In this document: piece after piece, positions 42,512 through 56,019 of the stretch
How the letters are laid out: each line of letters begins with the position of its first letter
Numbering within the stretch: the stretch's first letter is position 1
Assembly: GCA_965199985.1 (NCBI GenBank)
Contig: CBDAUU010000120.1
Coordinates: 1,188 to 65,187 of the forward strand
DNA from: Kofleriaceae bacterium
Lineage (GTDB): Bacteria; Myxococcota_A; Polyangia; Haliangiales; Haliangiaceae
DNA: 64,000 nucleotides
Direction: 5' to 3'
Position numbers and translations under genes: made by a program
The notes under the pieces: generated by a model
What the model was told of the DNA's origin: nothing
Databases searched by the model: none
Seen by the model: only the letters and a program-made list of their open reading frames with translations

Positions 42512-42515
42512 GCGC

Positions 42516-43871: not shown

Positions 43872-44535
43872 TCACGCCCCAGAAGGAAGGCACGTAGGCT
43901 TCGGCCGCGCCGCTCTCGATCGCGTGCACGATGCCGCGCGCCACGGCGGGAGGCTTGCCGAACAGCGCGTGCTTGGTGTGGCTCTGTGTCATCGGCGAAT
44001 CGACGGGACCCAGCTTCAGCGTCGTGACGCTCACGCGCGCGGGATAGAGCCGGGTGCGAAGGCCTTGGAGGTAGATATTCAAGGCGCCCTTGGCCGCGCC
44101 GTAGGTGTAGTTCCGCGGTCGGCCACGGTCGCCGGCAACCGAGGTGATGACCCCGATCCGCCCACCGCGCGCGCCTTCCATCGCGTTCGCGAGCGGCACG
44201 AGCAGCGAGACGACGCTCGTGAAGTTGACGCGCAAGATGCGCTCGGCCTCGTCGAACGCGTGCTCGCTCGCGAGCTGATCACCGAGGTCGCCGTGCGCGA
44301 TCAACGCAACATCGATGGTGCCGAGCACGGCAAGCGCCTCTGCGATCACCGCGGCGTTGCGATCGAGCTGCCCGAAATCGGCGATCTGCGTGGTCGCGTT
44401 CGCGCACCGCTCGGCGACGGCGGCGAGCTTTTCGGGATTGCGGCCGACCAGGTGGATGCGATCGCCGCGGGCCGCGTAGATCGCAGCAGCTTCGGCTGCG
44501 ATCGCCGATGTCGCGCCGAGGACGAGGACGTTCAT
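43804..44535 (-). CDS. DprE2-like short-chain dehydrogenase/reductase, copy 2
   Basis: 'VLVLGATSAIAAEAA' and 'YGAAKGAL' (YxxxK). C-terminal tail 'YVPSFWGVIMPIVRNTPERLFQRL' resembles the DprE2 C-terminus. Confidence 0.7.
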   Translation of the reverse strand: MNVLVLGATSAIAAEAAAIYAARGDRIHLVGRNPEKLAAVAERCANATTQIADFGQLDRNAAVIAEALAVLGTIDVALIAHGDLGDQLASEHAFDEAERILRVNFTSVVSLLVPLANAMEGARGGRIGVITSVAGDRGRPRNYTYGAAKGALNIYLQGLRTRLYPARVSVTTLKLGPVDSPMTQSHTKHALFGKPPAVARGIVHAIESGAAEAYVPSFWGVIMPIVRNTPERLFQRLSFLSGR

Positions 44536-45263
44536 CAGAAGTTGATCTTTCGCATGACGAAACGCGGGAGCGAGCGGATGACGAGCATCACGAGCGCCCA
44601 CATGCGCGGCGCGTAGACGACCGGCTTCTTGTTGTCCATCGCGCGCACGACGAGCGCTGCGACCTTGCGCGGCTCGCCCGCGAACGGCGGCGGCTTGAGC
44701 CCGGCGGTCATCTCGGTGCGGACGAAGCCAGGCTTGACGCAGGTCACGGCCAGCCCGGCCGCGTGGAACTTGTGGTCGAGCGCCTCGAGGTACGTGGTCA
44801 ACCCGGCCTTGCTCGCACCGTAGATCGCGACTGGCTTACGCCCGCGCTCCCCGGCCACCGACGAGAACACCACGAGGTGCCCGCCACCGCGCGCGAGTAG
44901 ACGCGTGCGCGCGTGCTCGCAGAACGCGACGGTGTTCGCGAAGTTCACGGTGACGAGCCGGCGGGTCAGCTCGACATCCGCCTCGAGCGCCTCCTGGCTC
45001 GCGAACATGCCCGCCGTCACGATCACGGTCTCGAATTCGCCGGCGCGGTCGAGCGCCTCGGCGAAGCCCTCGGGGTGCTCGAGATCGCAGATGCCGAAGC
45101 CGATGGCCTCTTGGCGCGCGTGATGGACCTGCAGATCGGCGGCGCTGCGCGCGAGGTCAGCGGCATTGCGGCCGAGCAGGAACACGGAATCGCCCCGCTC
45201 GACGAGCGTGCGCGCGACCTCGCGACCCATTCCTGACGTGCCGCCGAGAATGACAACCTTCAT
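44535..45263 (-). CDS. dprE2: Decaprenylphospho-D-erythro-pentofuranosid-2-ulose 2-reductase-like SDR (DprE2-like)
   Basis: 'VVILGGTSGMGREVA' and 'YGASKAGL'. Tail 'VVYAPRMWALVMLVIRSLPRFVMRKINF' resembles the recalled M. tuberculosis DprE2 tail '...[27 protein letters not shown]'. ATGA overlap with the DprE1-like gene. Confidence 0.8.
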   Translation of the reverse strand: MKVVILGGTSGMGREVARTLVERGDSVFLLGRNAADLARSAADLQVHHARQEAIGFGICDLEHPEGFAEALDRAGEFETVIVTAGMFASQEALEADVELTRRLVTVNFANTVAFCEHARTRLLARGGGHLVVFSSVAGERGRKPVAIYGASKAGLTTYLEALDHKFHAAGLAVTCVKPGFVRTEMTAGLKPPPFAGEPRKVAALVVRAMDNKKPVVYAPRMWALVMLVIRSLPRFVMRKINF

Positions 45264-46582
45264 GCCGGATCTCCAAACAGGCGGACCGATTGAGCGCTGC
45301 GCAGGCGGTGCGCGGGATCCCACTTCTCGCGTACGGCGAGGAATGCATCGAGCCGCGGCTCCATCGCGCGAAAGTGCTCGGCACGCGTGAAGCGATCCTT
45401 CGTCATGTAGATCCGGCCGCCCGCGGCGATCACGAGCTCGTTCAGGCGATCGATCACGCGCTGGATGTCGGCGACCACCGCGATATCGACGGCGATCGAG
45501 GTGCCCTCCAGCGGAAACGACAGCATCCCTTTACCCTGCGGACCGCAATCCTTGATCACGCACAGCGGCGATGCGCAGCCGAGCGCGGCCAGCTGCTTCA
45601 TGAACTCGCGCACGGCAGGTGCGCCGGCAGCGCGCGGTATCACGCACTGGTACTGGGTCATGCCGCGGCTGCCATACGCGCGATTCCAGTGCAGGATCGC
45701 ATCGAGCGGGTAGAAGAACGGCTCCGGCGAGACCACGCGCGTGATCTTCGTGTGCAGCTGCTTGCGGTAGTACAGCGCGTTGAACGCGCGCGCTGACCAC
45801 GGATTGAGCGCCCAGTTCGGTAGCACGACCGGTAGCGACCGCGCACTCGGAACCTTCGGTACACCGGGATGCGCCTCGTCGGGCTGCGCCCAATCGCCGA
45901 TCATCATGAGCCCACGCCCGGTGCTGCGGCCGCGGCTCAAGCAATCGATCCAGCCCATCGTCATCGGCGACGTGGCCGCCGAACGGTCGAGCGCGGTGAG
46001 AAACGCATCGATGTTCGGAACCCGCTCGCTCTCCATCCGCACCCACGGGCTCGCGATGCGCTTCATCGCGAACTCCACCTCGAGGATGTGGCCGAGGAGG
46101 CCCATCCCGCCGATCGCGGCATAGAACAGCTCCGCTTGCTCCGTCGGGCTGCATGTCACGACCTCGTTACTCGCGACGCGAAGGCGCAGCTCGCGGACGT
46201 GCGCGCCGAAGCAGCCATCGCGGTGGTGATTCTTGCCGTGCACGTCACTGGCGACCATGCCGCCGACCGTCACGTACTTGGTGCCCGGGCTGACCGGTGT
46301 GAACCAGCCGCGTGGCAAGAAGACCCGGTTGAGCTCGGCGAGGCTGATGCCGGCTTCGACTCGGAGCACACCGGTCTCCGGATCGAACGCCAGGATGCGA
46401 TCCGCGAGGCGCGTCGCGACGACCTTGTCATCTGCGTTCGCGGGCAGGGACGAGTCGCCGTAGGACCGGCCGAGCCCGCGGGAGAGCCGCGCGTCGATCG
46501 TGAGGCGCTCGAGATCCGACGACAGCACCTCGCGCCCGGGCGCCGGGATGCGGCCCCATCCTTCGAGCGTCGGGTCAGCCAT
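45260..46582 (-). CDS. dprE1: Decaprenylphospho-beta-D-ribofuranose 2-oxidase-like FAD enzyme (DprE1-like)
   Basis: 'LEGWGR', 'GLGRSYGDS', 'VTVGGMVASDVHGKNHH', 'ELFYAAIGGMGLLG', 'FYPLDAILHWNRAYG', 'YQCVIP' and 'SFPLEGTSIAVD' parallel DprE1 (Rv3790) blocks recalled from memory. Confidence 0.85.
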   Translation of the reverse strand: MADPTLEGWGRIPAPGREVLSSDLERLTIDARLSRGLGRSYGDSSLPANADDKVVATRLADRILAFDPETGVLRVEAGISLAELNRVFLPRGWFTPVSPGTKYVTVGGMVASDVHGKNHHRDGCFGAHVRELRLRVASNEVVTCSPTEQAELFYAAIGGMGLLGHILEVEFAMKRIASPWVRMESERVPNIDAFLTALDRSAATSPMTMGWIDCLSRGRSTGRGLMMIGDWAQPDEAHPGVPKVPSARSLPVVLPNWALNPWSARAFNALYYRKQLHTKITRVVSPEPFFYPLDAILHWNRAYGSRGMTQYQCVIPRAAGAPAVREFMKQLAALGCASPLCVIKDCGPQGKGMLSFPLEGTSIAVDIAVVADIQRVIDRLNELVIAAGGRIYMTKDRFTRAEHFRAMEPRLDAFLAVREKWDPAHRLRSAQSVRLFGDPA

Positions 46583-47489
46583 AGATGATGTAGAGGATCG
46601 TCACCGCAGCGGCTGCCAGATCGAGGACGAACCACGGATCTCGCAACATCGCTTCGGTGGGCGATTCATCCTTGGGCCGGTACAGCGCGAGCCAGACGAA
46701 GCGAATGATGCCGAGCGCGACGAACGGCGTGGAGAGGACGAGGCGTGACGTGTGAAACATCTCGACGGTGTGCTCGTCGAGGGTGTACGCCGCATACGCC
46801 GCCGTCGTGGCCACGGCCAGGACGATCATCGCGAGCCGGACGGTGGTCAGCCGATAGCCCGCCAGTGCGGCACGGGTCGCGGTCGACCCTTTGCCGGAGC
46901 GCTCCGCCCACGCGAGCTCGTGAGCGCGCTTGCCGAGCGCCAGGAACAGCGCGAGTAACCCGGTGCAGGCAAGCAGCCAGCCCGAGGCGGGAACATCGAT
47001 CGCGGCGGCCCCCGCGAGGACGCGCAACAGGAACCCGCTCGCGATCAAGCACACGTCGACGAATGCGACGTGTTTCAGCCGCACGCTGTAGGCGACGTTC
47101 TGCGCGAGGTAGAGGCCGGCCCAGACGCCGAGCATGCGCGACAGCAGCGTGCTGCCGACCAGCGCGATGACCGCGAGGATCCCGGCCGCGAGCAGGGCGG
47201 TATCCTCCGACACTTTGCCCGAAGCGATCGGCCGCCGACACTTGGTCGGATGGACGCGATCCTGCTCGACATCGAGCACATCGTTGAACGCGTAGACCGC
47301 GCCCGCCAGGAGCGAAAATGCGAGCACCGCCACCGCCTCACGCCACACGTAGGTCTTGTCGAGAAGGTGGTGCGAGAACACCAGCGGTGCCGCGACGAAC
47401 ACGTTCTTGACCCACTGGTGGGGTCGTAACGTCTTGATCAGCGGGAGCACCCGAGAGGGATAACCGGCGCTGTCGGTGGAGTCCAGCAT
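46575..47489 (-). CDS. UbiA-family decaprenyl-phosphate phosphoribosyltransferase-like enzyme
   Basis: 'LRPHQWVKNVFV', 'NDVLDVEQDRVHPTKCRRPIASG' (NDxxDxxxD) and 8-9 TM. ATG 47489 ('MLDSTDS') chosen inside the longer ORF. Overlaps dprE1 by 8 nt. Confidence 0.8.
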   Translation of the reverse strand: MLDSTDSAGYPSRVLPLIKTLRPHQWVKNVFVAAPLVFSHHLLDKTYVWREAVAVLAFSLLAGAVYAFNDVLDVEQDRVHPTKCRRPIASGKVSEDTALLAAGILAVIALVGSTLLSRMLGVWAGLYLAQNVAYSVRLKHVAFVDVCLIASGFLLRVLAGAAAIDVPASGWLLACTGLLALFLALGKRAHELAWAERSGKGSTATRAALAGYRLTTVRLAMIVLAVATTAAYAAYTLDEHTVEMFHTSRLVLSTPFVALGIIRFVWLALYRPKDESPTEAMLRDPWFVLDLAAAAVTILYIIYG

Positions 47490-47538
47490 CGCGATCGTGA
47501 CATTGACCGCACGTCGAGCACGGGCGAAGGTAGCCGGC

Positions 47539-49689
47539 GTGAAACGGCCGAAGCTGGTGTGGACGCGCCCCGCCGTGGGGACGCTGGTGGGCGTGGTGGC
47601 GGTCGTCATCGCCTTCGCGGCTCTCGCCTGGCACCGGCGATGGATCGCCGACGACGGCTTGATCGTGATTCGCACGGTCCGCAACGTGCTCGCGGGCAAC
47701 GGGCCGGTCTTCAACGCGTTCGAGCGCGCGGAGGCCAACACCAGCACACTCTGGACCTACGCCCTCGTCCTGATCGTCGGCGTGTTGCGGACCGAACCGG
47801 TCTTCACGTCTGTCGTTGTCGGATGGGCGTTCTCGGTCTGTGGAGTCGCGCTCGCGCTCGATGCCACCCGCCGCTTTCATCGTGCGCGCGGCTCGACCGC
47901 CCTGGTGCTGCCGGCCGGCGCACTCGTCCTGATCGGCACCCAGCCGTTCTGGGACTTTGCGACCTCCGGGCTCGAAACCGGGCTTGCAACGCTGTGGCTC
48001 GCGGCCTGCTGGTGGTTGCTCGTCGCGCTGCGTGCCGAGAGCTCGCTTCGGTCGAAGCTCGCGATCGCCTTCGTGTTCGGGCTTGGCCCGCTGGTGCGGC
48101 CAGACTTCGCCGTCGTTTCGGTCGTCTTCTGCATCGGGTTCTGGCTCCTGGTGCGTCCCAGCTGGAAGCTCGCGGCGCTGCTGCTCGGCGTCGCGCTCGC
48201 ACTACCGGTCACGTACGAAGTGTTTCGCGCGGGCTACTACGGCGTGCTCGTGCCTCTCCCTGCGATCACCAAGAGTGCAGGAGACGCGGATTGGGCACGT
48301 GGCATCGCGTACCTGCTCGACTACGTGACTCCGTACTTCGTGTACGTGCCAGTGGTGATCCTCGCGATCCTCGCGTGCATCGCCCTGCTCCGACGACGGA
48401 TCGTAGACCGTGTCCGGATCCTCATCGGAACGACGACCGTTGCCGGACTGTTGATGACCGCCTTCGTCCTCCGAGTCGGCGGCGATTTCATGCATGGCCG
48501 CATGATGCTGCCGCCGACGTTCATGCTGCTGTTTCCGGTGATGCTCCTTCCTGTGCGCCGCATCACCGCACCCGCGTTGGGTGCGATCGCGATCTGGGCC
48601 GTCGTCGCCCTCGTGATCCGGACCGATGGCAAGCCTCATTCAAGCGCGGAGCGCGTGTTCGACGAACGTCATAACTACGCGAACTGGACGAGGTCCCGGC
48701 ATCCAACAGAGGCTTCGGTTTTCCTGCAAGCGGACATTTACTCGACGAATCTTGTCAACGCGGCGCTCGCCAACCACCGTCACCGGTTGATCTCGGAAGG
48801 CGGCCTCGATCTCGCCGCGAACCCTGCGTATTCCGCTCCGGTGATGTACGCGGTCGGGCGGTTGGGCACGGGCGGTGCGACGGCACCGCTCGATGGCATC
48901 GTGATCGACGTCCTCGGCCTCGCGAATCCGCTCGGTGCGCATATCACGGTCAATCAGCCCGGAATGACCGGCCACGAGAAGAGCCTCCCGTGGGCGTGGA
49001 TTCGGGCGGACTACACGGATCCCGCGACCGACGCCAGGCCAAGAAACGCGCTCAACGTCGCAGCGATCCGGGCCGCACGGCACGCGATGGGCTGCGGCGA
49101 TCTTGCGGAGCTCTTCGCCTCGGTTCGCGAACCGATGACAGCGAGCCGCTTTCTCGCGAACCTCGAAGGATCGGTACGCCGGACCCGGCTCGTCGTTCCG
49201 AGCGATCCGTTCGACGCCGAGAAGAAGTTCTGCCCGGACATGCTGCCTCGTGACCTCACCAACCTGGATCCGGACGTCGTGGCATCGAGCAGTTACGAAG
49301 GAGAAGGGTGGGGCGTCGACGCAGCGGTCGACGGCCTCACGACCTCGACGAGCGAATCGAAGGGATTCTCGAGCGAGGTCGGTCCGACCCAGTGGATCGA
49401 GGTTCACCTCCACAAACCCTCGTCGGTGTCGACGGTCACGCTCTATCCGCGCGCCGATGACCTGCCAGGTGCGGGCTTCCCGATCGATTTCCAGATCGAG
49501 ATCTGGAACGGCAGCGCGTGGATCCCGCGCGTGACTCGAACCGCCGTTCCGAACCCGGGCTCCACCGCGCAGGTGTTCACGTGGTCCCCGGCCGACCAGA
49601 CCGATCGCGTTCGCATCACCGCGACGAAACTGCCAACCGTGTCGAAGGAAGGGCCGCGGCTCCAGTTCGCCGAGATCGAAGTGAAGTGA
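47539..49689 (+). CDS. GT-C-type polytopic glycosyltransferase (arabinofuranosyltransferase candidate) fused to a C-terminal F5/8 type C (discoidin) domain
   Basis: 'WIADDGLIVIRTVRNVLAGNGPVFNAFERAEANTSTLW' (first-loop acidic motif) and more than 10 TM. C-terminal 'WIEVHLHKPSSVSTVTLYPR...FQIEIWNGSAWIP...RVRITATKL...LQFAEIEV'. The start could be 47476. Confidence 0.65.
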   Translation: MKRPKLVWTRPAVGTLVGVVAVVIAFAALAWHRRWIADDGLIVIRTVRNVLAGNGPVFNAFERAEANTSTLWTYALVLIVGVLRTEPVFTSVVVGWAFSVCGVALALDATRRFHRARGSTALVLPAGALVLIGTQPFWDFATSGLETGLATLWLAACWWLLVALRAESSLRSKLAIAFVFGLGPLVRPDFAVVSVVFCIGFWLLVRPSWKLAALLLGVALALPVTYEVFRAGYYGVLVPLPAITKSAGDADWARGIAYLLDYVTPYFVYVPVVILAILACIALLRRRIVDRVRILIGTTTVAGLLMTAFVLRVGGDFMHGRMMLPPTFMLLFPVMLLPVRRITAPALGAIAIWAVVALVIRTDGKPHSSAERVFDERHNYANWTRSRHPTEASVFLQADIYSTNLVNAALANHRHRLISEGGLDLAANPAYSAPVMYAVGRLGTGGATAPLDGIVIDVLGLANPLGAHITVNQPGMTGHEKSLPWAWIRADYTDPATDARPRNALNVAAIRAARHAMGCGDLAELFASVREPMTASRFLANLEGSVRRTRLVVPSDPFDAEKKFCPDMLPRDLTNLDPDVVASSSYEGEGWGVDAAVDGLTTSTSESKGFSSEVGPTQWIEVHLHKPSSVSTVTLYPRADDLPGAGFPIDFQIEIWNGSAWIPRVTRTAVPNPGSTAQVFTWSPADQTDRVRITATKLPTVSKEGPRLQFAEIEVK

Positions 49690-50999
49690 GGCCGAGCTCG
49701 CGCGCCATTCTCGTCGTGGGCTGGCTCGGGATGATGCTCTATGCGTTTCCCGGCTATATGAGCTACGACTCGGTCGCGCAGCTGATGGAGGCGCGCCTCG
49801 GGTGGTTCGATGACGGTCATCCGCCGGCGATGGCCTTTCTCTGGGGCAACGTCGATGGCTTCGTGGCCGGGCCGGTCGGCATGCTGGTCATCCAGGTCAC
49901 GTGCTTCCTGATCGGCGCATACCTGATCCTGCGCCAGCGCCTTGCGCCGAGGGGCGCCGCGGTCTGTGCCGTGCTGGTGCTGTGGTTTCCGCCCGTCGCG
50001 AACACGATGAGTGTGATCTGGAAGGACTCGCAGATGGCGGCCTTCATGTTGCTCGGGACCGCGCTGCTGCTCGAGCCGCGCCGGCACTGGAAGATCATCG
50101 GACTCGTGCTGCTCGGCCTCGCGACTGCGCTTCGCTACAACGCGCTCGCGATGACGATCGAGCTGGTCGTCTTGTTGTTCGTGTGGAACCCGACGTGGCA
50201 CTGGTGGAAGCGCTACGCCCTCGGATTGCTCGCGTTCGTCGTCATCACCGTTGGAGCGCGGGTCGTCACCACCGCCCTCACCGATACCCCGCGGTTCATG
50301 TGGCATCGCAGCATCGCGTTGCTCGATATCGTGGGCACGCTCCGCTACGCGCCCGATATTCCCGAGGCAACGCTCGAGCAGGAGCTGGCGGGCACGCCAC
50401 TCGTCGTCCCGAACGACCTCCAGGCGCGGGCTCGCAAGACGTGGCGACCCGACGTGTCGCGCACCGAGCAGTTGTGGGATGCAACCGACCGGTTCTTCGA
50501 GCGCCCGGATACGCCGTCAGAGCGCGAGGCGGTAGCTCGAGCGTGGCGAGCGATCGTGTTCGCGCATCCGAAGGCGTACCTCGAGTACCGGTGGGTCTTG
50601 TTCGCGCAGCTGATCCAGCTCGACGACACGCAGCTGGGCTCGCCCGTTTATTTTTGGTTCGGCGACATCCAGGACCTCGCGCGCAGCGCTGTCTATTCGG
50701 ATCACGATGCAGGCCCGAGTGGCCTGCAGTCTGCGCTCCACCAGGTCATGGAATGGCTCGGCGAGACCTGGTTGTTCCACGTTTCCGTGTATGTCGGACT
50801 GGCCCTCTTGCTGTTGCCGTTCTGCTGGGGAGACCGGCTGACATTCGCACTCCTCTCATCGGGCCTTGCCGGCGAGCTGTTCCTGTTCGTGATCGCGCCG
50901 ACGGTGGACGTGCGGTACTCGTTCTGGCTCGTGCTGACGACCGTGCTCGCGGTCATCCTGATCACCGCGCGTAGGGTATTGTCGCGGCCACAGCTATGA
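49686..50999 (+). CDS. Polytopic membrane protein, GT-C-like (paralogue of 42516..43871)
   Basis: GTGA overlap with the upstream gene. 'YAFPGYMSYDSVAQL', 'DDGHPPAMAFLW' and 'IWKDSQMAAF'. Confidence 0.55.
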   Translation: MRPSSRAILVVGWLGMMLYAFPGYMSYDSVAQLMEARLGWFDDGHPPAMAFLWGNVDGFVAGPVGMLVIQVTCFLIGAYLILRQRLAPRGAAVCAVLVLWFPPVANTMSVIWKDSQMAAFMLLGTALLLEPRRHWKIIGLVLLGLATALRYNALAMTIELVVLLFVWNPTWHWWKRYALGLLAFVVITVGARVVTTALTDTPRFMWHRSIALLDIVGTLRYAPDIPEATLEQELAGTPLVVPNDLQARARKTWRPDVSRTEQLWDATDRFFERPDTPSEREAVARAWRAIVFAHPKAYLEYRWVLFAQLIQLDDTQLGSPVYFWFGDIQDLARSAVYSDHDAGPSGLQSALHQVMEWLGETWLFHVSVYVGLALLLLPFCWGDRLTFALLSSGLAGELFLFVIAPTVDVRYSFWLVLTTVLAVILITARRVLSRPQL

Positions 51000-52852
51000 G
51001 ACGGCCGGTGTTAGGGGTGCTCGAGATCGCGACGGCGTTCGTCGTCGCCGCGCTATTCGTTCTGTCGTGCACGCACGTCTCGATGGATCCTCTCGATCGG
51101 CTCGGTCAAGTCAGCATCCTGGCCGCGATCGAATGGCGCTTCGTGCTGTTCGCACTGCCGTGCGTTGCCGCCTTGCTCCTCGCCGCCCGCGGATCGCATT
51201 TCGAAACCTGGACCCGGTTCGTGTGCGCGGCCATGGCCGGGCTCGCGAGCGCGACCGTGGCCGGCGGGGTCTACGCCATCCTTCACCGCACCCCGTTCGG
51301 CCTCGGCGGAATGGGCGGAGATGCCGGCATCCTGATCTCATGGGCCGACCAGGTGAAGGCGGGTAAGGGCATGGAGTCCAGTGTCTACCCGCCGGGCCAG
51401 ATCTATCTCCTCGCAGCGATGTCGAAGCTCTCGGGTGTTCGCAGCGCGTACGTCATCCAGGCGTTTCAGATCGTCGGCGTGGCCGCGGTCGGTCCGTGCG
51501 CTTACGCGGCATGGCGGCTCCTCCTGAAGCCGCAGACCGCCCTGATCGTGGCCTTGGTCTCGGGCATCCCGATGATCGAGGCGTATCGCCAGTATCCACT
51601 CCTGACGCTCGTGATCTTGATCCCTGTCCTGGTGAAGTTTCTCCAGGTCCTGCGCTACTCCGACCGCGACCCGCTGCGCCGCACCATCTGGTGTGGCCTG
51701 GGCTTCGGGGTCGCACTCGGCTCCTTGTTCCTCCTGTACTCGGGTTGGTTCCAGTGGTCTGGTCCGGGCTTCTTTGTCGCGGCCGCGATCGTCTTTCCGT
51801 GGCGCAACTGGAAGCAGGGCGCGCTGTTCTGCGCGATCGCGAGCGTGGTGTTCGGCCTGATGACGTACCGTTACCTCACGGGCGTCGTCGCAGCGTCGGG
51901 TGTCTCGGATAACTACGTCTACTTCGACGCGACGATCGAACCGATGTTCGTCGCGATGTGGCGCGGCGGGTTGCCAGGCACGATCGGCGTGTGGCCACCG
52001 TTCGGCGAGTTCGGTGGCGTCGGCGTGTTCACGCTGATCCTCGCGGTCGGTCTCGGGCTCTCGGTCGCGATCGCGCGCGCGCGCACGATCGTGATCGGTG
52101 TGGGCTGCATCCTCGTGGGCACCTGGCTATTTCGGCTGTGGCATGCGCACCGGATGTGGAAGACCAAGCTCGTCCAGCTGTGGCCGCGCACGACGGCCGA
52201 GCTGCTCTACCTCCTGCTGGTGCTCGGCGCGTTCGCCGCATGCATCGCGATCGAACGCCGCCGCAAAGCCGAAGAAGCCACAGCCACCGGGTTCATTGGC
52301 GTGATCGCCGGGCTCGCGCTGGTCATTGCATCGGCCAGCTCCTCGACGATCGACAAATACATGCCAAAGAACGAGGAGGCCGGTCCGGGCATGCTGGCGT
52401 GGCGCTCGTTCCATCAGCCCCTGCTCGAGGCGAATCAGCTCACGATGGGCGCGACCGTGAAAGCGCGGTCTTCGCTCGAGACCAGCCGGTGGTCGACCGG
52501 CGGAGCGATCGATCACAAGCTGACGCGGGGCTACTCCAGCGAGCTCGGTCGCAAGGATGACCACGTCGAGTGGCTCGAGCTCGACATGCACCAGGCCCGG
52601 ATCTTTTCGCGGCTGTTGTTCTGGCCCGCTGAAGCGGGAAGTCCCGTCGACTTCGTCGTCGAGGTCTGGGACGGCTCGACGTGGACCGTTGAAGCAACGG
52701 TGAAGGACTTCCCGCAGGCACACATGCTGCCGCAGGTGATCAAGCTTGCACACTCGCACGAGACTGACCTTGTCCGCATCCGCGCCACGAAGCTCCGTCA
52801 GGTTGACGGTGACTACGTGTTCAGGGTTGCCGAAGTCGAGCTCTACGAATAG
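50996..52852 (+). CDS. Polytopic membrane protein (GT-C candidate) fused to a C-terminal F5/8 type C (discoidin) domain
   Basis: ATGA overlap with the upstream gene and about 12 TM. C-terminal 'WLELDMHQARIFSRLLFWP...FVVEVWDGSTWTV...LVRIRATKL...FRVAEVELY'. Confidence 0.6.
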   Translation: MRRPVLGVLEIATAFVVAALFVLSCTHVSMDPLDRLGQVSILAAIEWRFVLFALPCVAALLLAARGSHFETWTRFVCAAMAGLASATVAGGVYAILHRTPFGLGGMGGDAGILISWADQVKAGKGMESSVYPPGQIYLLAAMSKLSGVRSAYVIQAFQIVGVAAVGPCAYAAWRLLLKPQTALIVALVSGIPMIEAYRQYPLLTLVILIPVLVKFLQVLRYSDRDPLRRTIWCGLGFGVALGSLFLLYSGWFQWSGPGFFVAAAIVFPWRNWKQGALFCAIASVVFGLMTYRYLTGVVAASGVSDNYVYFDATIEPMFVAMWRGGLPGTIGVWPPFGEFGGVGVFTLILAVGLGLSVAIARARTIVIGVGCILVGTWLFRLWHAHRMWKTKLVQLWPRTTAELLYLLLVLGAFAACIAIERRRKAEEATATGFIGVIAGLALVIASASSSTIDKYMPKNEEAGPGMLAWRSFHQPLLEANQLTMGATVKARSSLETSRWSTGGAIDHKLTRGYSSELGRKDDHVEWLELDMHQARIFSRLLFWPAEAGSPVDFVVEVWDGSTWTVEATVKDFPQAHMLPQVIKLAHSHETDLVRIRATKLRQVDGDYVFRVAEVELYE

Positions 52853-52871
52853 CGAGACAACGACGACGGAT

Positions 52872-53450
52872 TCAGCGCTTGCGCGCGAGGACGATGAACT
52901 CGTTGTAGCGGAAGAACTTTCCCAGCGAGCGTGCGAACGGGAACGAGTACTGGTCGGTGACTCGCAGCCCGGCGTGCGATGCGATCGCGGCGAGCCGTTC
53001 GAGGTCGACGAACTCGATGTGTGTTGGGTTGAAGCGAAACCCGGCTTCTTGTGGCGTGATGAAGATCGCGCGGCCGCCTGCCTTGAGTCGCGGAATGTAC
53101 TGCTCGACGAGGGCCTGCGCCTCCGCGCCGGTCATGTGCTCGAGCACGTGCGAGAACAGGAGGGTGTCGAACTGTTTCGCCGGATCGACCTCGGTGAGAA
53201 ATTCATCGGGCGTGTAGACGGTCAGTCCGTTCGCGCGGCAACTCGCAAGCGATTCGGGATCGATATCGATACCGATTCCATTTCCGTTGCAATGGAACAA
53301 GTTGCGGCCCATGCCGCAGCCGACATCGAGGACGAAACCCGGATCGAGCTTCTGCAGGTGGCGGCGATACGGCCACTGCACGTCGATGTAGCGCTTCCAC
53401 CAAGCGCCCACGCGAACGCGGTTGGCGGAAGCGGCATCGACACCGGACAT
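52872..53450 (-). CDS. Class I SAM-dependent methyltransferase
   Basis: 'VLDVGCGMGRNL', 'TLLFSHVLEHM' and 'GGRAIFITP'. An internal ATG (53450) is preferred, because the longest ORF would overlap the divergent GT4 start. Confidence 0.65.
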   Translation of the reverse strand: MSGVDAASANRVRVGAWWKRYIDVQWPYRRHLQKLDPGFVLDVGCGMGRNLFHCNGNGIGIDIDPESLASCRANGLTVYTPDEFLTEVDPAKQFDTLLFSHVLEHMTGAEAQALVEQYIPRLKAGGRAIFITPQEAGFRFNPTHIEFVDLERLAAIASHAGLRVTDQYSFPFARSLGKFFRYNEFIVLARKR

Positions 53451-53600: not shown

Positions 53601-54707
53601 ATGCATCGAATCCTGTTGAGCACGTACGCGTATCCGCCCTCGGTCGGGGGTGTCGAGCGTCAGTCACAACGCCTCGCTCACGCGCTCGTCGAGCGCGGCC
53701 ATGCCGTCGAAGTAGTGACTGCCGAACATCCCGACGCGCCCGTGCACGAGCTCGATCACGGGGTCGAGATCACGCGCGTGTCAGCGGGAATCGGGTCGCG
53801 CTGGCGCAGGATGGCGACGTACGTGAGCAGCGTCGCGGCCCACGTGATTCGCAGACGCGATCAGATCGATCTCGTCCACATCCAGCAGGCGCTCTATCCG
53901 GCAGCCGCGATCACGCCGCTGGCGCGCGCGCTCGGCAACCCCGTGGTGGTCCGCAACTCTGGCTCCGGGACGCATGGCGCGGTGCAGCTGATGTCGCGGT
54001 TGCCGGGCGGGCGGGCGGCCCTGGCGGTTATCGGGCGGTTAGCGACGACGGTCTCCCTCTCGGACGAGATGACCCGCGAGATGCGCGACGCGGGGTTTCA
54101 GCGCGTCGTCCAGATTCCCAACGGGGTCGAGCCGCCGCGGGTGGTCGACCGCGCGGCAGCGCGCGACGCGCTCGGGATCCCTGCGCGCGCACGGGTGGTT
54201 CTCGTCGTCGGTCGCCTCGACCGCGAGAAGGGAACTCGCCTGCTGGCGCGAGCCTGGCCGCTCGTTGCGGCTCCGGATGCACTGCTCGTCGTGGCAGGCG
54301 ATGGGCCGGAGCGCGAGCTGCTGACGACCTTCGCGAACGTACGGCTGCCCGGCTTTGTCGCGGATCTCGCGCCGTACTATGCGGCCGCCGACCTGTTCGT
54401 GTTGCCCTCGGAGTCCGAGGGAATCTCGAATGCATTACTCGAGGCAATGGCGGCCGGCCTCCCGGTGATCGCGACGAAGGTCGGCGGTAACGCCGCCGTC
54501 ATTTCGGATCCCTCGTTCGGCGTGCTCACCCCGGCCAACGACGCGAGCTCGCTCGCTCGCGAGATCAGCGCACTTCTAGGGGACAACGATCGGGCGTTGC
54601 TTCTCGGGCGCTCGGCGAAGCAGCACGTCGCCGAATTCTGGTCGTTCCAGGCGATGGTCGACGCGTACGAGCGCCTGTACGATTCCGTCGTTGTCCGAGC
54701 CGCGTGA
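53601..54707 (+). CDS. GT4-family glycosyltransferase
   Basis: 'YPPSVGGVERQSQRLAHAL', 'GRLDREKG' and 'FVLPSESEGISNALLEAMAAGLPVIATKVGG' (EX7E region). Confidence 0.8.
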   Translation: MHRILLSTYAYPPSVGGVERQSQRLAHALVERGHAVEVVTAEHPDAPVHELDHGVEITRVSAGIGSRWRRMATYVSSVAAHVIRRRDQIDLVHIQQALYPAAAITPLARALGNPVVVRNSGSGTHGAVQLMSRLPGGRAALAVIGRLATTVSLSDEMTREMRDAGFQRVVQIPNGVEPPRVVDRAAARDALGIPARARVVLVVGRLDREKGTRLLARAWPLVAAPDALLVVAGDGPERELLTTFANVRLPGFVADLAPYYAAADLFVLPSESEGISNALLEAMAAGLPVIATKVGGNAAVISDPSFGVLTPANDASSLAREISALLGDNDRALLLGRSAKQHVAEFWSFQAMVDAYERLYDSVVVRAA

Positions 54708-56019
54708 ATCGAGACCCGCTCGAAGCCTGATCCAGCTGGTCGTGGCGGTCGGGTCGATCGCGATGATCGCTCGCGTGTTCGGTGCCGGTAAGGATCTGAT
54801 CGTCGCCGATAAGCTCGGGACCTCCGATCTGCTCGACGCGTTCCTGATGGCGAGCCTGGTGCCTCTGTTCGTCACGAACACGATCTCGGCATCGTTCGGC
54901 GAAGCGTTCGTGCCGGTGTTCGTGCGCGCGCGCGACCAACAGGGCAAGGTGGAGGCGCAGCAGCTCCTTCGCGGCGCCACTGCGATCACCCTGATCACCT
55001 TGGTGGTCGTTACTGCTCCTCTGGCGCTGTTCATGAGACCACTGCTCGAGGTGCTGGCGCGTGGGTTCTCCGAGGACAAGGTCGCGCTGACGACGCACAT
55101 GGCTCGCACGCTCCTGCCGATTCAGATCCTCGGCGGCCTGTCGGCCTGCTGGGCGCACGTGCTCAATGCGAGTGGTCAAGCGCATCGGACCGCGCTGACG
55201 CCGATCATCGCGCCCGTCCTCACGATCGCTGCGCTCCTCGCCGGCGGGGGACAAGCCGCCGTGTTCGCCCTCACGGGTGGCCTGCTCGGTGGCGCCGTCA
55301 TCGAGGCACTCGCGCTCGGACTCTCGGTTCACGCGCTCGGCTTCTCGTTGATGCCTCGGTGGATCGGCTTCACGCCGGAGCTGCGGCGCTTCGCGAACCA
55401 GTGCGTGCCCCTCGCGGGCGCGTCCTTCCTGGCAACCGGTTCGAGCTTGATCGATCAGTCGATGGCCTCGTGGCTGGGCTCTGGCGCGGTCTCTGCACTC
55501 AACTACGGCAACAAGATCACGATGATGGTCCTCGGCGTGGCGAACGTCGCGTTGACCTCGGTGCTGTACCCGCACTTCGCGACGCTCGTTGCAGCGCACG
55601 ACTTCGCAGGACTGCGCGCGGTGTTTCGGCGCTACACGCTCTTGCTGCTGCTCGCGGGAGCGGCAGGCGCAGCGATCTTGATCGCGATCTCCGGGCCCGT
55701 GATCTCGCTCCTGTTCGAACGCGGCTCGTTTCATGCGAGCGACACGGCCATCGTCGCGCGCGTGCAGCAGCTCTATCTGATCCAGCTCCCATTTCATCTC
55801 GCGGGGATCATCGGCGTGCGCCTCGTGAGCGCGCTCGGCCTCAATCGGATCCTGCTCGCGTTCACGCTCGTCACTGGGGTGATCAACGCGGCTGCAAACT
55901 ACTGGTTCATGCAGCGGTGGGGGGTGGCGGGTATCGCCTTGTCGACCTCGCTCGTGTTCTTGTCCTCCTTCGTGATGGTGTGGTTCACCACTCGTGCACT
56001 GCTGAAGGCCCGGTCGTGA
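54691..56019 (+). CDS. MurJ/MVF-family lipid-linked oligosaccharide flippase-like protein
   Basis: 'ARVFGAGKDLIVADKLGTSDLLDAFLMA' and 'FGEAFVPVF' resemble the MurJ N-terminus. 12-14 TM. Confidence 0.7.
   Translation: MSEPRESRPARSLIQLVVAVGSIAMIARVFGAGKDLIVADKLGTSDLLDAFLMASLVPLFVTNTISASFGEAFVPVFVRARDQQGKVEAQQLLRGATAITLITLVVVTAPLALFMRPLLEVLARGFSEDKVALTTHMARTLLPIQILGGLSACWAHVLNASGQAHRTALTPIIAPVLTIAALLAGGGQAAVFALTGGLLGGAVIEALALGLSVHALGFSLMPRWIGFTPELRRFANQCVPLAGASFLATGSSLIDQSMASWLGSGAVSALNYGNKITMMVLGVANVALTSVLYPHFATLVAAHDFAGLRAVFRRYTLLLLLAGAAGAAILIAISGPVISLLFERGSFHASDTAIVARVQQLYLIQLPFHLAGIIGVRLVSALGLNRILLAFTLVTGVINAAANYWFMQRWGVAGIALSTSLVFLSSFVMVWFTTRALLKARS

What the first reader, a model, noticed from the sequence alone, without database searches (positions are those of the whole stretch)
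47539..52852. Translationally coupled operon of three polytopic GT-C-like proteins, two fused to C-terminal discoidin (F5/8 type C) domains
Three plus-strand membrane-protein genes lie divergent from the DPA genes, separated by about 50 bp. They are linked by GTGA and ATGA overlaps.

The first gene has a first-loop acidic motif ('WIADDGLI...NGPVFNAFERAEANTS') typical of GT-C enzymes that use polyprenyl-phosphate sugars. The first and third genes each end in a ~130-aa domain with discoidin hallmarks ('W(I/L)E(V/L)..', 'F.(I/V)E(I/V)W(N/D)GS.W', 'RI(T/R)ATKL', 'AE(I/V)E(V/L)').

A carbohydrate-binding module covalently attached to a GT-C arabinosyltransferase candidate recalls the CBM-decorated mycobacterial AftD/Emb enzymes, but this is a different domain type. 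The middle gene has a paralogue at 42516..43871 that shares 'DD(G)HPPAMA' and 'IWKDS.MA.F'. This looks like the periplasmic polymerising or branching machinery for the DPA donor, and I do not recognise the architecture as a described one.
Basis: partly seen in the sequence, partly recalled or inferred. Interest (0 to 1): 0.7.

Follow-up and report, generated by a model that had tools for sequence, protein, structure and literature searches.

The report
Arabinan-type membrane glycosyltransferases in a myxobacterium
A likely Kofleriaceae (Myxococcota) genome fragment carries a tightly coupled operon of three membrane glycosyltransferases: a clear relative of mycobacterial AftB, an AftA-like enzyme, and an undescribed type, two of them fused to sugar-binding discoidin modules, next to genes that make the lipid-linked arabinose donor, which suggests that a Gram-negative lineage uses mycobacterium-style arabinose chemistry on its surface glycan.

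Summary
Three overlapping plus-strand genes (GTGA and ATGA overlaps) lie 49 bp from a divergent UbiA/DprE1/DprE2 cassette.

- **Gene 1** is a clear AftB (GT89) homologue: PDB 9dlf E=3.5e-75, 41% identity. The catalytic DD motif and the donor-contact residues are conserved. It carries an extra C-terminal F5/8 type C (CBM32) domain.
- **Gene 3** has no sequence match to a known family. Its confident AlphaFold model hits AftA (8if8) first, and the C-terminal domain matches CBM32. In Pseudonocardia its homologues sit in the glf-glfT2-dprE1/E2 arabinogalactan cluster.
- **Gene 2** and its paralogue belong to a large unannotated family (about 4,900 cluster representatives). The predicted fold is GT-C, with an invariant Asp at the tip of the first periplasmic helix.

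The host is probably a Kofleriaceae (Myxococcota) MAG, not an actinobacterium.

The g1-g2-g3 order is conserved in relatives. Adjacency to the DPA genes is not: in two relatives the g2 paralogue directly precedes g1.

Best reading: periplasmic glycosylation of a surface polysaccharide from polyprenyl-phosphate sugars. Polyprenyl-P-Araf is the likely donor for g1, is plausible for g3, and is open for g2.

This is a new variant of a known kind. The AftB+discoidin architecture is already auto-annotated in databases, but I found no paper describing it.

The parts
47539..49689 (+). g1: AftB-family (GT89-like) GT-C glycosyltransferase. The TM plus periplasmic domain covers aa 1-557, followed by a C-terminal discoidin module.
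   Evidence: PDB 9dlf AftB at E=3.5e-75 over query aa 4-557. NCBIfam NF041481 at 2e-86, but 290 bits against a 1050-bit cutoff. D38/D39, T68, E146, R187, R321 and Y380 match McAftB D61/D62, T91, E172, R221, R372 and Y449. The 100%-identical database protein has precomputed PF26371 AftB_C.
49282..49686 (+). g1 C-terminal F5/8 type C (discoidin / CBM32-like) domain, aa 582-716.
   Evidence: PF00754 at 2.9e-10 (40.8 bits, above the 28.2 cutoff) and PF22633 at 5.7e-8. The family profile hits the lectinolysin lectin domain and NanJ CBM32.
49686..50999 (+). g2: 437-aa polytopic protein of an unannotated family with a predicted GT-C fold. It overlaps g1 by GTGA.
   Evidence: No Pfam, NCBIfam or PDB sequence hit. 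AF2 pLDDT is 94. The nine best Foldseek hits are GT-C enzymes (STT3, ArnT, Pmt4, EmbB, PimE), with E 2e-3 to 4e-2 and query-normalised TM 0.29-0.41. D28 is invariant at the start of the first periplasmic helix. The family has 4,904 50%-cluster representatives.
50996..52852 (+). g3: AftA-fold GT-C (13 predicted TM helices, aa 1-~472) with a C-terminal CBM32-like domain. It overlaps g2 by ATGA.
   Evidence: AF2 pLDDT is 91.4. The top Foldseek hits are AftA 8if8 (E=7e-10, TM 0.51-0.53, 17% identity). D109 is invariant in the loop after TM3, and R398 is invariant at the start of TM12. Pseudonocardia and Kutzneria homologues lie beside glf, glfT2, dprE1/E2 and ubiA.
52454..52849 (+). g3 C-terminal discoidin/CBM32-like beta-sandwich, aa 487-618.
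   Evidence: PF00754 at 1.5e-4 (22.3 bits, below the cutoff). It is 31% identical to the g1 domain. Foldseek CBM32 hits have target-normalised TM 0.7-0.86. hhalign between the A1 and A3 families gives 98% probability for this domain.
47490..47538 (.). 49-bp divergent intergenic region between the UbiA-like gene and g1.
   Evidence: Start codons read directly from the sequence. No sigma-70-like match was found.
46575..47489 (-). UbiA-family polyprenyl-phosphate phosphoribosyltransferase (DPPR-synthase-like).
   Evidence: PF01040 at 6.8e-22. NCBIfam NF008977, decaprenyl-phosphate phosphoribosyltransferase, at 234.3 bits against a 234 cutoff.
45260..46582 (-). DprE1-like FAD oxidase.
   Evidence: NF053785 at 3.3e-108 (363 bits, below the 500 cutoff) and PF01565.
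44535..45323 (-). DprE2-like SDR reductase (copy a).
   Evidence: NF053786 at 5.9e-49 (167 bits, cutoff 250) and adh_short. It is paired with DprE1 in about 70 metagenomic loci.
43804..44601 (-). Second DprE2-like SDR (copy b), 31% identical to copy a.
   Evidence: NF053786 at 4.4e-38. Paralogy shown. It is conserved next to DprE1-DprE2a in L082, L083 and L087.
42462..43871 (+). g2 paralogue. In relatives it lies directly upstream of g1.
   Evidence: 40% identity to g2, E=2e-73. Synteny with L080 and L081.
40889..42511 (+). Methyltransferase-GT2 fusion, an AglJ / Dol-P-hexose-transferase / PpgS-like candidate polyprenyl-phosphate-sugar synthase. It heads the + strand gene row.
   Evidence: PF00535 at 1.4e-24, TIGR04182 at 3.4e-28 and NF058614 at 5e-10. 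It is conserved upstream of the g2 paralogues in L080 at 81% identity.
54580..56019 (+). MurJ/MATE-like MOP flippase, a candidate exporter of a lipid-linked sugar or repeat unit.
   Evidence: PF03023 at 4.1e-51 and PF01554 at 2.7e-8. TIGR01695 at 196.8 bits, below the 235.55 cutoff. It is conserved downstream in L081.

Best explanation
The three genes encode a periplasm-facing glycan-building module of a Kofleriaceae-like myxobacterium. Each product is a GT-C membrane glycosyltransferase that takes a sugar from a polyprenyl-monophosphate donor in the outer leaflet of the inner membrane and adds it to a surface polysaccharide. That polysaccharide is made by the surrounding GT2, GT4, methyltransferase and flippase genes.

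- **g1** is an AftB-family enzyme. It most likely uses polyprenyl-P-D-arabinofuranose. The adjacent UbiA-type phosphoribosyltransferase would make polyprenyl-P-ribose-5-P, and DprE1 plus DprE2 would epimerise C2 to give the arabinose donor. By analogy with AftB, g1 would transfer through the DD-motif Asp (D39) with retention.
- **g3** has the AftA fold, including the two extra N-terminal helices and an invariant Asp (D109) on the loop after TM3. It probably adds Araf too, possibly as the priming step.
- **g2** and its paralogue are GT-C enzymes of a new family with an invariant Asp (D28) at the tip of the first periplasmic helix. Their donor may be polyprenyl-P-Araf, or a polyprenyl-P-hexose/HexNAc made by the GT2 enzymes of the locus.
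- **The CBM32/discoidin modules** on g1 and g3 are periplasmic. They are inferred to hold the enzyme on the acceptor polymer, as CBMs do in EmbC, AftD and GT136.

Shown here: the homologies, folds, conserved residues, gene order and synteny. Inferred: donor identity, linkage, acceptor and CBM role.
For: - **g1 versus AftB.** E=3.5e-75 for the single sequence and 2.6e-122 for the family profile, covering the TM and periplasmic domains. The nucleophile D62 and donor contacts T91, E172, R221 and R372 described in PMC12041299 are all conserved.
- **Donor genes nearby.** The UbiA-like protein reaches the NCBIfam cutoff for decaprenyl-phosphate phosphoribosyltransferase. DprE1 and DprE2 homologues lie beside it, 49 bp from g1.
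- **g3.** The model is confident (pLDDT 91.4). Its best structural matches are AftA chains (E=7e-10, TM 0.52), followed by CBM32 modules. In 13 Pseudonocardia and Kutzneria loci the g3 homologue sits with glf and/or glfT2, and in 3 Pseudonocardia-like loci (L042, L065, L067) also within 10 kb of a DPA-pathway gene (dprE1/dprE2 or ubiA). These are the genes of the arabinogalactan cluster.
- **g2.** The model has pLDDT 94. All nine best Foldseek hits are GT-C enzymes. A few family members give weak PMT_2 or GT87 hits. D28 is invariant.
- **Gene order.** g1-g2-g3 is conserved in L080 and L081 with the same overlaps. g1, g2 and g3 homologues co-cluster in further Kofleriaceae loci.
- **Precedent.** Periplasmic pentofuranose addition by a PPPRS, an epimerase, a flippase and a CBM-bearing GT-C in Gram-negatives is described in PMC11127046.
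- **Topology.** AftB's C-terminal domain is periplasmic, and the discoidin domain follows it with no further TM helix. g3 has 13 predicted TM helices with a positively charged N-terminus.
Against: - Adjacency of the GT-C operon and the DPA cassette is seen only in this window.
  - In L080 and L081 the g2 paralogue abuts g1, with no DPA genes in between.
  - Three more Myxococcota AftB-like loci have no UbiA or FAD_binding_4 gene within 10 kb. They are instead surrounded by GT2+DUF2304 pairs.
  - The closest DprE1 relatives (69-71% identity) have no g1, g2 or g3 homologue nearby and sit in housekeeping context.
- Genome-level co-occurrence could not be tested.
- No 5-phosphatase (Rv3807c-like or HAD) was identified in the window.
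- The g1 score is far below the AftB equivalog cutoff. Three residues tied to the acceptor or the sugar differ (T274P, F448N, T524G), so linkage and acceptor may differ from AftB.
- g3 has no detectable sequence similarity to AftA.
- The g2 structural matches are weak (E about 1e-3, TM about 0.4).
- There is no biochemical evidence for any step.
Confidence: 0.6

Rival explanations
1. Mixed-donor decoration system. Only g1, and perhaps g3, uses polyprenyl-P-Araf. g2 and its paralogue use polyprenyl-P-hexose or -HexNAc made by the locus's GT2 enzymes (GT2a and the MT-GT2 fusion), in the manner of GtrB/GtrC, ArnC/ArnT or PpgS/Rv3779. They would add side-chain sugars rather than extend an arabinan.
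For: GT2a and MT-GT2 match AglJ, Dol-P-hexose transferase and PpgS models. In L080, MT-GT2 directly heads the row g2-like, g2par, g1, g1, g2, g3, g3. g2-family genes occur in up to five copies per 20 kb without DPA genes. Myxococcota AftB-like loci are rich in GT2+DUF2304 pairs and LPG_synthase_TM proteins. The g2 family shows no profile similarity to the g1 or g3 families.
Against: g2 is translationally coupled between two arabinosyltransferase-like genes in three genomes. No direct link ties a particular GT2 to g2. This reading is compatible with most of the best explanation and differs only in the g2 donor.
Confidence: 0.3
2. None of the three uses arabinose. The AftB- and AftA-like folds have been recruited in Myxococcota for another polyprenyl-P-sugar, and the DPA cassette lies next to them here by a chance rearrangement.
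For: The DPA adjacency is unique to this window. The cassette looks inserted between g2par and g1, with a 68-nt convergent overlap with g2par. The g1 score is well below the AftB equivalog cutoff. Sugar and acceptor contacts T274, F448 and T524 are changed. The Citrobacter GT136 enzyme accepts either Ribf or Xylf donors, so GT-C donor choice can be loose.
Against: The residues that contact the donor in AftB are all retained: E172 on the C5-OH of the sugar, T91, R221 and R372. DprE1/E2 cassettes at about 70% identity exist in related metagenomic contigs, so the pathway is maintained in the lineage. g3 homologues are embedded in actinobacterial arabinogalactan clusters.
Confidence: 0.1
3. Protein O-arabinosylation. 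The GT-Cs would modify a pilin, S-layer protein or other secreted protein, like TfpW of Pseudomonas aeruginosa (own knowledge), rather than a polysaccharide.
For: GT-C enzymes include protein glycosyltransferases: STT3, PglB and Pmt are among the g2 structural neighbours. D-Araf pilin glycosylation using DPA-pathway homologues is mentioned in PMC11127046.
Against: Neither the Pfam annotation nor the reading of the 64-kb window showed pilin or S-layer genes. The enzymes carry carbohydrate-binding modules. The locus is a typical polysaccharide cluster with GT2, GT4, a MOP flippase and methyltransferases. AftB and AftA act on glycans.
Confidence: 0.05

Closest known systems
AftB (Rv3805c; M. chubuense AftB, PDB 9dlf/9dlh), CAZy GT89, the terminal beta-(1->2)-arabinofuranosyltransferase
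   Same: g1 aligns over the whole TM domain and the periplasmic domain (41% identity across 547 aligned positions). The DD motif and the donor-binding residues T91, E172, R221 and R372 are conserved. The database twin of g1 carries Pfam AftB_C. As in mycobacteria, the gene lies next to a ubiA-type gene (the mycobacterial gene order is from my own knowledge).
   Different: g1 has an extra C-terminal F5/8 type C domain. Its host is a Gram-negative Myxococcota-like organism. It scores far below the NCBIfam equivalog cutoff (290 versus 1050 bits). Residues T274, F448 and T524 are changed. The acceptor cannot be a mycolyl-arabinogalactan terminus.
AftA (Rv3792, PDB 8if8), CAZy GT85, the galactan-priming arabinofuranosyltransferase
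   Same: AftA is the best structural match of the g3 model (E=7e-10, TM 0.52). Both have 13 TM helices, with two helices preceding the GT-C core, a conserved Asp on the loop after TM3, and a conserved Arg at TM12. g3 homologues in Pseudonocardia sit in the glf-glfT2-dprE cluster.
   Different: Identity is only 17%. None of 40 family members hits Pfam AftA_N or AftA_C. The alpha/beta C-terminal domain of AftA is replaced by a CBM32 beta-sandwich. Arg132, the partner of the catalytic Asp, has no conserved counterpart four residues downstream.
Three-component pentofuranose modification systems of Gram-negative bacteria (Citrobacter youngae ORF15 PPPRS, ORF14 MATE flippase, ORF12 GT136 GT-C+CBM; Kelly et al. 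2024, PMC11127046)
   Same: The logic matches: a UbiA-type polyprenyl-phosphoribose synthase, optional epimerases (DprE1/E2 for Araf), a MOP/MATE-type flippase candidate, and a periplasmic GT-C carrying a C-terminal carbohydrate-binding module.
   Different: Here there are three or four GT-Cs of different families (AftB-like, AftA-like, new) instead of one GT136. The CBM is of the discoidin/CBM32 type. No fused or separate phosphatase was found. The multiplicity suggests oligomer or polymer building rather than a single side-chain sugar.
EmbA/B/C and AftD, mycobacterial arabinosyltransferases with CBMs
   Same: These are GT-C arabinosyltransferases with periplasmic carbohydrate-binding modules that bind the acceptor glycan (as summarised in PMC11127046).
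   Different: The GT families differ (GT53 and the AftD family), as do the CBM folds and positions. Only 3 of 40 g3-family members give a weak CBM_AftD hit.
PpgS / Rv3632 / Rv3779 and GtrA/B/C-type polyprenyl-P-hexose systems
   Same: The locus and related loci contain PpgS/AglJ-like GT2 enzymes, DUF2304 proteins and GT-C proteins in close linkage. This offers an alternative donor route for g2-type enzymes.
   Different: No specific pairing has been shown. The assignment of Rv3632 to DUF2304 and the role of Rv3779 are from my own knowledge and were not tested here.

Membership tests
AftB family (CAZy GT89 / Pfam AftB_C) | Sequence homology across the 11-TM domain and the C-terminal periplasmic domain | tested here: met
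   phmmer against 9dlf gives E=3.5e-75 over query aa 4-557 and chain residues 29-641. The family profile gives 2.6e-122. PF26371 AftB_C is precomputed for the identical protein P0247.
AftB family (CAZy GT89 / Pfam AftB_C) | DD motif with the catalytic nucleophile (McAftB D62) at the tip of JM1 | tested here: met
   g1 D38/D39 align with D61/D62. They are invariant in 25 family members. Their role is described in PMC12041299.
AftB family (CAZy GT89 / Pfam AftB_C) | Donor (polyprenyl-P-Araf) contacts T91, E172, R221 and R372 | tested here: met
   All four are conserved as T68, E146, R187 and R321, and all four are invariant in the family.
AftB family (CAZy GT89 / Pfam AftB_C) | Equivalog-level score, meaning the same function as mycobacterial AftB (NCBIfam NF041481 cutoff) | tested here: not met
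   290.5 bits against a 1050-bit cutoff. The T274-, F448- and T524-equivalent positions are changed.
AftB family (CAZy GT89 / Pfam AftB_C) | Retaining beta-(1->2) Araf transfer from DPA | not testable with these tools
   This needs an enzyme assay with polyprenyl-P-Araf and an acceptor.
AftA family (CAZy GT85 / Pfam AftA_N, AftA_C) | Sequence match to AftA models or to the solved AftA | tested here: not met
   No AftA_N or AftA_C hit in any of 40 family members at E<=1. No PDB sequence hit for the single protein or the profile. No NCBIfam hit.
AftA family (CAZy GT85 / Pfam AftA_N, AftA_C) | AftA-type GT-C fold: 13 TM helices, with TM1-2 outside the core | tested here: met
   The AF2 model has pLDDT 91.4 and 13 long helices. 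The top Foldseek hits are 8if8_C and 8if8_B, at E=7e-10 and 1.4e-9 with TM 0.51-0.53 over about 510 columns. The AftA description is in PMC10265970.
AftA family (CAZy GT85 / Pfam AftA_N, AftA_C) | Catalytic Asp on the first long periplasmic loop after TM3 (D128) and donor-phosphate Arg on TM12 (R415) | tested here: inconclusive
   Invariant D109 begins helix 108-121 after TM3. Invariant R398 begins helix 397-425, the twelfth TM helix. Residue-level superposition on 8if8 could not be obtained.
AftA family (CAZy GT85 / Pfam AftA_N, AftA_C) | Alpha5-beta5 sandwich C-terminal domain that covers the active site | tested here: not met
   After the last TM helix the g3 model has one short helix and then an all-beta CBM32-like domain.
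F5/8 type C (discoidin) / CBM32 | Pfam PF00754 above the gathering threshold | tested here: met
   g1 scores 40.8 bits against a 28.2 cutoff. g3 alone scores 22.3 bits, below the cutoff. 19 of 40 g3-family members hit PF00754 at E<=1, with a best E of 2.7e-10.
F5/8 type C (discoidin) / CBM32 | Beta-sandwich fold matching solved CBM32 modules | tested here: met
   The g3 model matches 4zz5, 4zy9, 2v72 and 4a41 with target-normalised TM 0.79-0.86 and E about 1e-6. No g1 structure was predicted. The g1 domain is tied to the g3 domain by 31% identity and by hhalign at 98% probability.
F5/8 type C (discoidin) / CBM32 | Carbohydrate binding | not testable with these tools
   This needs a glycan array or a binding assay.
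GT-C superfamily (for g2) | Polytopic GT-C core fold | tested here: met
   The model has pLDDT 94. Foldseek ranks 1-9 are all GT-C enzymes (STT3, ArnT, Pmt4, EmbB, PimE), but with modest scores: E 2e-3 to 4e-2 and TM 0.29-0.41.
GT-C superfamily (for g2) | Conserved acidic residue at the tip of the first juxtamembrane helix in periplasmic loop 1 | tested here: met
   D28 is invariant in 43 sequences. It lies at the start of helix 27-38, directly after TM1 at 5-20.
GT-C superfamily (for g2) | Membership of a described GT-C sequence family (PMT_2, GT87, GT83, GT136 and others) | tested here: not met
   The window protein has no Pfam, NCBIfam or PDB sequence hit. Only 4 of 43 relatives give weak PMT_2 or GT87 hits. 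GT136 could not be compared because no sequence was available.
Three-component periplasmic pentofuranose system (PMC11127046) | UbiA-type polyprenyl-phosphate phosphoribosyltransferase | tested here: met
   NF008977 at 234.3 bits against a 234 cutoff, and PF01040.
Three-component periplasmic pentofuranose system (PMC11127046) | DprE1/DprE2-type 2'-epimerase pair for Araf | tested here: met
   NF053785 at 3.3e-108 and NF053786 at 5.9e-49, both below equivalog cutoffs. The pair is conserved as a cassette in about 70 metagenomic loci.
Three-component periplasmic pentofuranose system (PMC11127046) | Phosphoribose 5-phosphatase (fused HAD domain or a separate enzyme) | tested here: inconclusive
   No phosphatase family appeared in the Pfam or NCBIfam scans of the ORFs I scanned across the window. 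Several ORFs have no annotation, and not every ORF was scanned.
Three-component periplasmic pentofuranose system (PMC11127046) | MATE/MOP-type flippase for the lipid-linked pentose | tested here: inconclusive
   A MurJ/MatE-like protein at 54580-56019 scores below the MurJ equivalog cutoff. Its substrate is unknown.

The most novel reading that the evidence does not exclude
Kofleriaceae and related Myxococcota, which are Gram-negative, build a true multi-residue D-arabinofuranan or arabinan-decorated envelope polymer with a division of labour that parallels mycobacteria. An AftA-like enzyme primes, the new g2 family elongates or branches, and an AftB-like enzyme adds beta-linked caps. CBM32 modules provide acceptor tethering. 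On this reading the g2 family, with thousands of members, would found a new CAZy family of arabinofuranosyltransferases, and the arabinan toolkit would have been shared between Actinomycetota and Myxococcota by ancient gene transfer.
Probability: 0.2. Interest if true: 0.8.

Novelty: new variant of a known kind. Interest (0 to 1): 0.58.

Why it matters
- **Reach of AftB and AftA.** These enzymes are studied almost only as mycobacterial and corynebacterial cell-wall enzymes and as drug-target neighbours of DprE1. Clear AftB-family enzymes and AftA-fold enzymes in a Gram-negative phylum, in multi-copy clusters beside a DPA-type donor cassette, extend arabinan-style chemistry well outside the Mycobacteriales.
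- **Beta-linked Araf.** Kelly et al. 2024 noted that no beta-linked Araf additions were known outside AftB. If g1 acts like AftB, this lineage would supply the first such examples.
- **A new enzyme family.** The g2 family is large (about 4,900 representative clusters) and entirely unannotated. It is a candidate new GT-C family.
- **A possible non-canonical AftA.** The link between g3 homologues and the Pseudonocardia arabinogalactan cluster suggests that the galactan-priming enzyme of non-mycolate actinomycetes may be this divergent family rather than a canonical AftA.
- **Natural fusions for study.** The CBM32 fusions are natural examples for studying how acceptor tethering works in GT-C enzymes.

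All of this rests on computation, and the donor and acceptor remain unproven.

Tried and rejected
- **Actinobacterial origin.** The GC content and the DPA genes suggested it, but I rejected it. The window encodes a sigma-54 enhancer-binding protein, glutathione synthetase and TPR Ser/Thr kinases. That Actinobacteria lack sigma-54 is from my own knowledge. All named close homologues of g1, g2 and g3 come from Kofleriaceae or Myxococcota MAGs.
- **Exact look-up of the source contig.** This failed. The g3 protein and its identical database entry are not indexed, so the organism is inferred rather than read off.
- **Sequence-level classification of g2 and g3.** Pfam, NCBIfam, PDB phmmer and PDB profile searches gave nothing. 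Only structure prediction was informative.
- **Relationship among the three membrane domains.** hhalign finds no detectable relationship among them. They are three separate families, not diverged paralogues.
- **Co-localisation with DPA genes, tested from both sides.**
  - Of 79 genome loci around g3 homologues, only 3 (Pseudonocardia-like actinobacterial loci L042, L065 and L067) have DPA genes within 10 kb.
  - Of 80 metagenome loci around DprE1 relatives, none has a g2 or g3 homologue within 10 kb. One distant locus (L146, 41% DprE1 identity) has a weak 26% match to the g1 AftB-like domain.
  - The idea of a conserved DPA-GT-C supercluster is rejected.
- **Promoter and terminator scan of 47300-53700.** No sigma-70-like site was found, and only weak intragenic hairpins. 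This was not informative.
- **Literature searches.** Searches for DPA or arabinofuranosyltransferases in myxobacteria, and for GT-C with discoidin, found nothing relevant.
- **WaaL/Wzy-like polymerase reading for g2.** WaaL appears only at Foldseek rank 30, with TM 0.2 and probability 0.18. I rejected this reading.
- **The DD(G)HPP motif as the g2 catalytic site.** Its aspartates are not invariant, whereas D28 is.

Full report
**Observation**

The region contains three real plus-strand genes.
- g1 is 47539-49689 (716 aa), g2 is 49686-50999 (437 aa), and g3 is 50996-52852 (618 aa).
- GC3 is 0.81-0.84. Each gene has a 100%-identical database protein of the same length.
- The junctions are a GTGA overlap (49686-49689) and an ATGA overlap (50996-50999).
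- On the other strand, the UbiA-like gene most plausibly starts at ATG 47489. Homology to phosphoribosyltransferases begins just downstream of that codon. This leaves a 49-bp divergent gap.
- The g2 paralogue at 42462-43871 is 40% identical to g2 (E=2e-73).
- The two C-terminal domains are 31% identical to each other (E=9e-18).

**Gene 1**

g1 is not an unrecognisable architecture. It is a clear AftB-family protein.
- It matches the solved M. chubuense AftB (9dlf) at E=3.5e-75 over residues 4-557, which covers AftB's 11-TM domain and its periplasmic domain. A profile of 25 relatives gives 2.6e-122.
- I used the residues defined in the AftB structure paper (PMC12041299). The DD motif with nucleophile D62, and the donor contacts T91, E172, R221 and R372, are all conserved in g1 and invariant in its family. 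T274, F448 and T524 are replaced.
- The NCBIfam AftB equivalog model scores only 290 bits against a 1050-bit cutoff. g1 is therefore a family member but not an orthologue in the functional sense.
- Residues 582-716 form an additional F5/8 type C domain (PF00754, 40.8 bits against a 28.2 cutoff). It follows the periplasmic domain with no further TM helix, so it must be periplasmic.

**Gene 3**

- g3 has no sequence match in Pfam, NCBIfam or the PDB, either alone or as a 40-member profile.
- Its AlphaFold2 model is confident (pLDDT 91.4, pTM 0.89).
- Its best structural neighbours are the two AftA chains of 8if8 (E=7e-10 and 1.4e-9, TM 0.51-0.53, about 510 columns, 17% identity). A long list of CBM32 modules follows, matching the C-terminal beta-sandwich with TM about 0.8.
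- The model has 13 long helices, like AftA (PMC10265970).
- An invariant Asp (D109) starts the first helix of the loop after TM3, where AftA has its catalytic D128. An invariant Arg (R398) opens TM12, where AftA has R415. I could not obtain a residue-level superposition, so these equivalences are inferred.
- AftA's alpha/beta C-terminal domain is absent and is replaced by the CBM32 module.
- Independent support for an arabinosyltransferase role comes from context elsewhere. In 13 Pseudonocardia and Kutzneria loci the g3 homologue (about 40% identity) sits beside UDP-galactopyranose mutase and/or GlfT2-type galactofuranosyltransferases. In three Pseudonocardia-like loci (L042, L065, L067) a DPA-pathway gene also lies within 10 kb: DprE1/DprE2 in L042 and UbiA in L065 and L067. 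These are the genes of the arabinogalactan cluster.

**Gene 2 and its paralogue**

- There are no Pfam, NCBIfam or PDB sequence hits.
- The model is very confident (pLDDT 94).
- The nine best Foldseek hits are all GT-C enzymes: STT3, ArnT, Pmt4, EmbB and PimE. The scores are modest, at E 2e-3 to 4e-2 and TM 0.29-0.41.
- A few relatives give weak PMT_2 or GT87 hits.
- D28 is invariant. It sits at the N-terminal tip of the first helix after TM1, the position of the catalytic Asp in GT-C-A enzymes.
- The family is large, with 4,904 50%-identity representatives at E<=1e-3 and 1,002 at E<=1e-30. All named members are from Kofleriaceae, Myxococcota or 'Deltaproteobacteria' MAGs.
- Profile-profile comparison shows that the membrane domains of g1, g2 and g3 are not detectably related to each other.

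**Organism**

Despite 66% GC and the DPA genes, the window is not actinobacterial.
- It encodes a sigma-54 enhancer-binding protein, glutathione synthetase and TPR Ser/Thr kinases.
- The closest named homologues of all three genes are Kofleriaceae (Haliangiales, Myxococcota) MAG proteins.
- The exact contig could not be retrieved.

**Context and conservation**

- The surrounding 35 kb is a polysaccharide locus. It contains two AglJ/PpgS-like GT2 enzymes, one of them fused to a methyltransferase. It also contains three LPG_synthase_TM proteins, GT4s, several methyltransferases, a MurJ/MATE-like flippase, and further unannotated polytopic proteins in paralogous pairs.
- The g1-g2-g3 order is conserved in two relatives at about 65-72% identity, L080 and L081, with 4-bp overlaps at the g1-g2 junction. 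In L080, g1 and g3 are each duplicated.
- Other Kofleriaceae loci hold a g3 homologue with up to five g2 paralogues and a g1 homologue within 20 kb.
- The link to the DPA cassette is not conserved.
  - In L080 and L081 the g2 paralogue directly precedes g1. The four minus-strand genes at 43804-47489 therefore look like an insertion or rearrangement specific to this genome.
  - Three more Myxococcota AftB-like loci have no UbiA or DprE1 gene within 10 kb and are rich in GT2+DUF2304 pairs.
  - The closest DprE1 relatives (69-71% identity) keep the DprE1-DprE2 cassette, in two checked cases in housekeeping surroundings (L085 and L086). No g1, g2 or g3 homologue was detected in their flanks.
- The two gene sets therefore both seem to be maintained in the lineage, but they are usually unlinked. 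Genome-level co-occurrence could not be tested with the caps available.

**Mechanism proposed**

- Shown here: the homologies, folds, conserved residues and gene order.
- Inferred donor route: the UbiA-type enzyme makes polyprenyl-P-ribose-5-P from PRPP. An unidentified phosphatase removes the 5-phosphate. DprE1 and DprE2 invert C2 to give polyprenyl-P-Araf. A flippase, possibly the MurJ/MATE-like protein, exposes the donor to the periplasm.
- Inferred transfer steps: g1 transfers Araf with retention through D39. g3 transfers Araf, possibly as the priming step. g2 and its paralogue add further residues from the same donor, or from a GT2-made polyprenyl-P-hexose.
- Inferred CBM role: the CBM32 modules bind the acceptor polymer.
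- Precedents: the overall logic matches the three-component pentofuranose systems described for Gram-negative O antigens, whose GT-C (GT136) also carries a C-terminal CBM (PMC11127046). It also matches the CBM-bearing Emb and AftD enzymes.

**Novelty**

- The kind of system is known: periplasmic GT-C glycosylation from polyprenyl-P-pentofuranose, with CBM-assisted GT-Cs.
- New here are AftB-family and AftA-fold enzymes in Myxococcota, their CBM32 fusions, the multi-GT-C operon, and the large unannotated g2 family.
- The AftB_C+F5_F8_type_C architecture already exists in more than 70 database clusters under automatic names. I found no paper that describes it.
- I rate it a new variant of a known kind, of moderate to good interest. 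The main uncertainty is donor identity for g2, and to a lesser extent for g3.

Noticed in passing
window 43804-47489 (minus strand), compared with L080 3195-7908 and L081 5-2997: The four-gene DPA cassette (two DprE2-like SDRs, DprE1, UbiA) sits between the g2 paralogue and g1 only in this window. In two relatives the g2 paralogue directly abuts g1. The 3' ends of the g2 paralogue and DprE2b overlap convergently by 68 nt (43804-43871). This looks like a lineage-specific insertion or rearrangement.
   Followed up: partly
window 43804-44601 and 44535-45323 (minus strand): There are two DprE2-like short-chain reductases, only 31% identical to each other, both next to DprE1. The trio is conserved in metagenomic relatives L082, L083 and L087. 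What the second reductase makes is unknown; it could be a different epimer or a redundant copy.
   Followed up: partly
L015, L022, L024, L035, L036, L038, L040, L042, L050, L054, L055, L065, L067 (Pseudonocardia, Kutzneria): Homologues of g3, with no Pfam AftA domains, lie inside the glf-glfT2 (and, in three loci, dprE1/dprE2 or ubiA) arabinogalactan-type cluster, together with a DUF6541 membrane protein and an unannotated 613-aa protein. The galactan-priming arabinosyltransferase of these non-mycolate actinomycetes may be this divergent family.
   Followed up: partly
window 32322-33629 (+), 36237-37739 (-), 38255-39646 (+): Three further polytopic membrane proteins have no Pfam hit. The first two are 48% identical paralogues, and one gives a weak hit to the NCBIfam 'AZOBR_p60025 family cell surface glycopolymer formation protein' model. 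They could be additional GT-C or polymerase-like enzymes of the same pathway.
   Followed up: partly
window 33631-34746 (-), 37504-38505 (-), 39650-41161 (-): There are three LPG_synthase_TM (flippase-like) proteins in one locus, two of them 67% identical. They are interleaved with GT2 and unknown membrane proteins, which suggests duplicated donor-synthesis/flipping/transfer modules.
   Followed up: no
proteins P0367-P0372, P0374, P0432, P0498: Some members of the g2 family are 840-1386 aa long and match the profile in 2-4 stretches. These are tandem fusions, or unsplit tandem genes, of this GT-C-like unit.
   Followed up: no
L162, L163, L164: In other Myxococcota, AftB-like genes sit beside small GT2 + DUF2304 pairs and, in one locus, GT_STM0557_N (PF19528) proteins. 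L163 (GCA_030155825.1) shares the sigma-54 activator and glutathione synthetase flank with the window. The glycan island therefore occupies a conserved chromosomal position while its content varies.
   Followed up: partly
window 55359-57668 (+): A 769-aa ORF combines a weak FemAB-like region with a class I methyltransferase domain, directly after the MurJ-like gene. The same pair follows the flippase in L081.
   Followed up: no
window 26518-28581 (-): A PIG-L-type de-N-acetylase is fused to FG-GAP repeats at the edge of the glycan locus. A similar PIG-L+FG-GAP gene lies near the AftB-like gene in L164.
   Followed up: no
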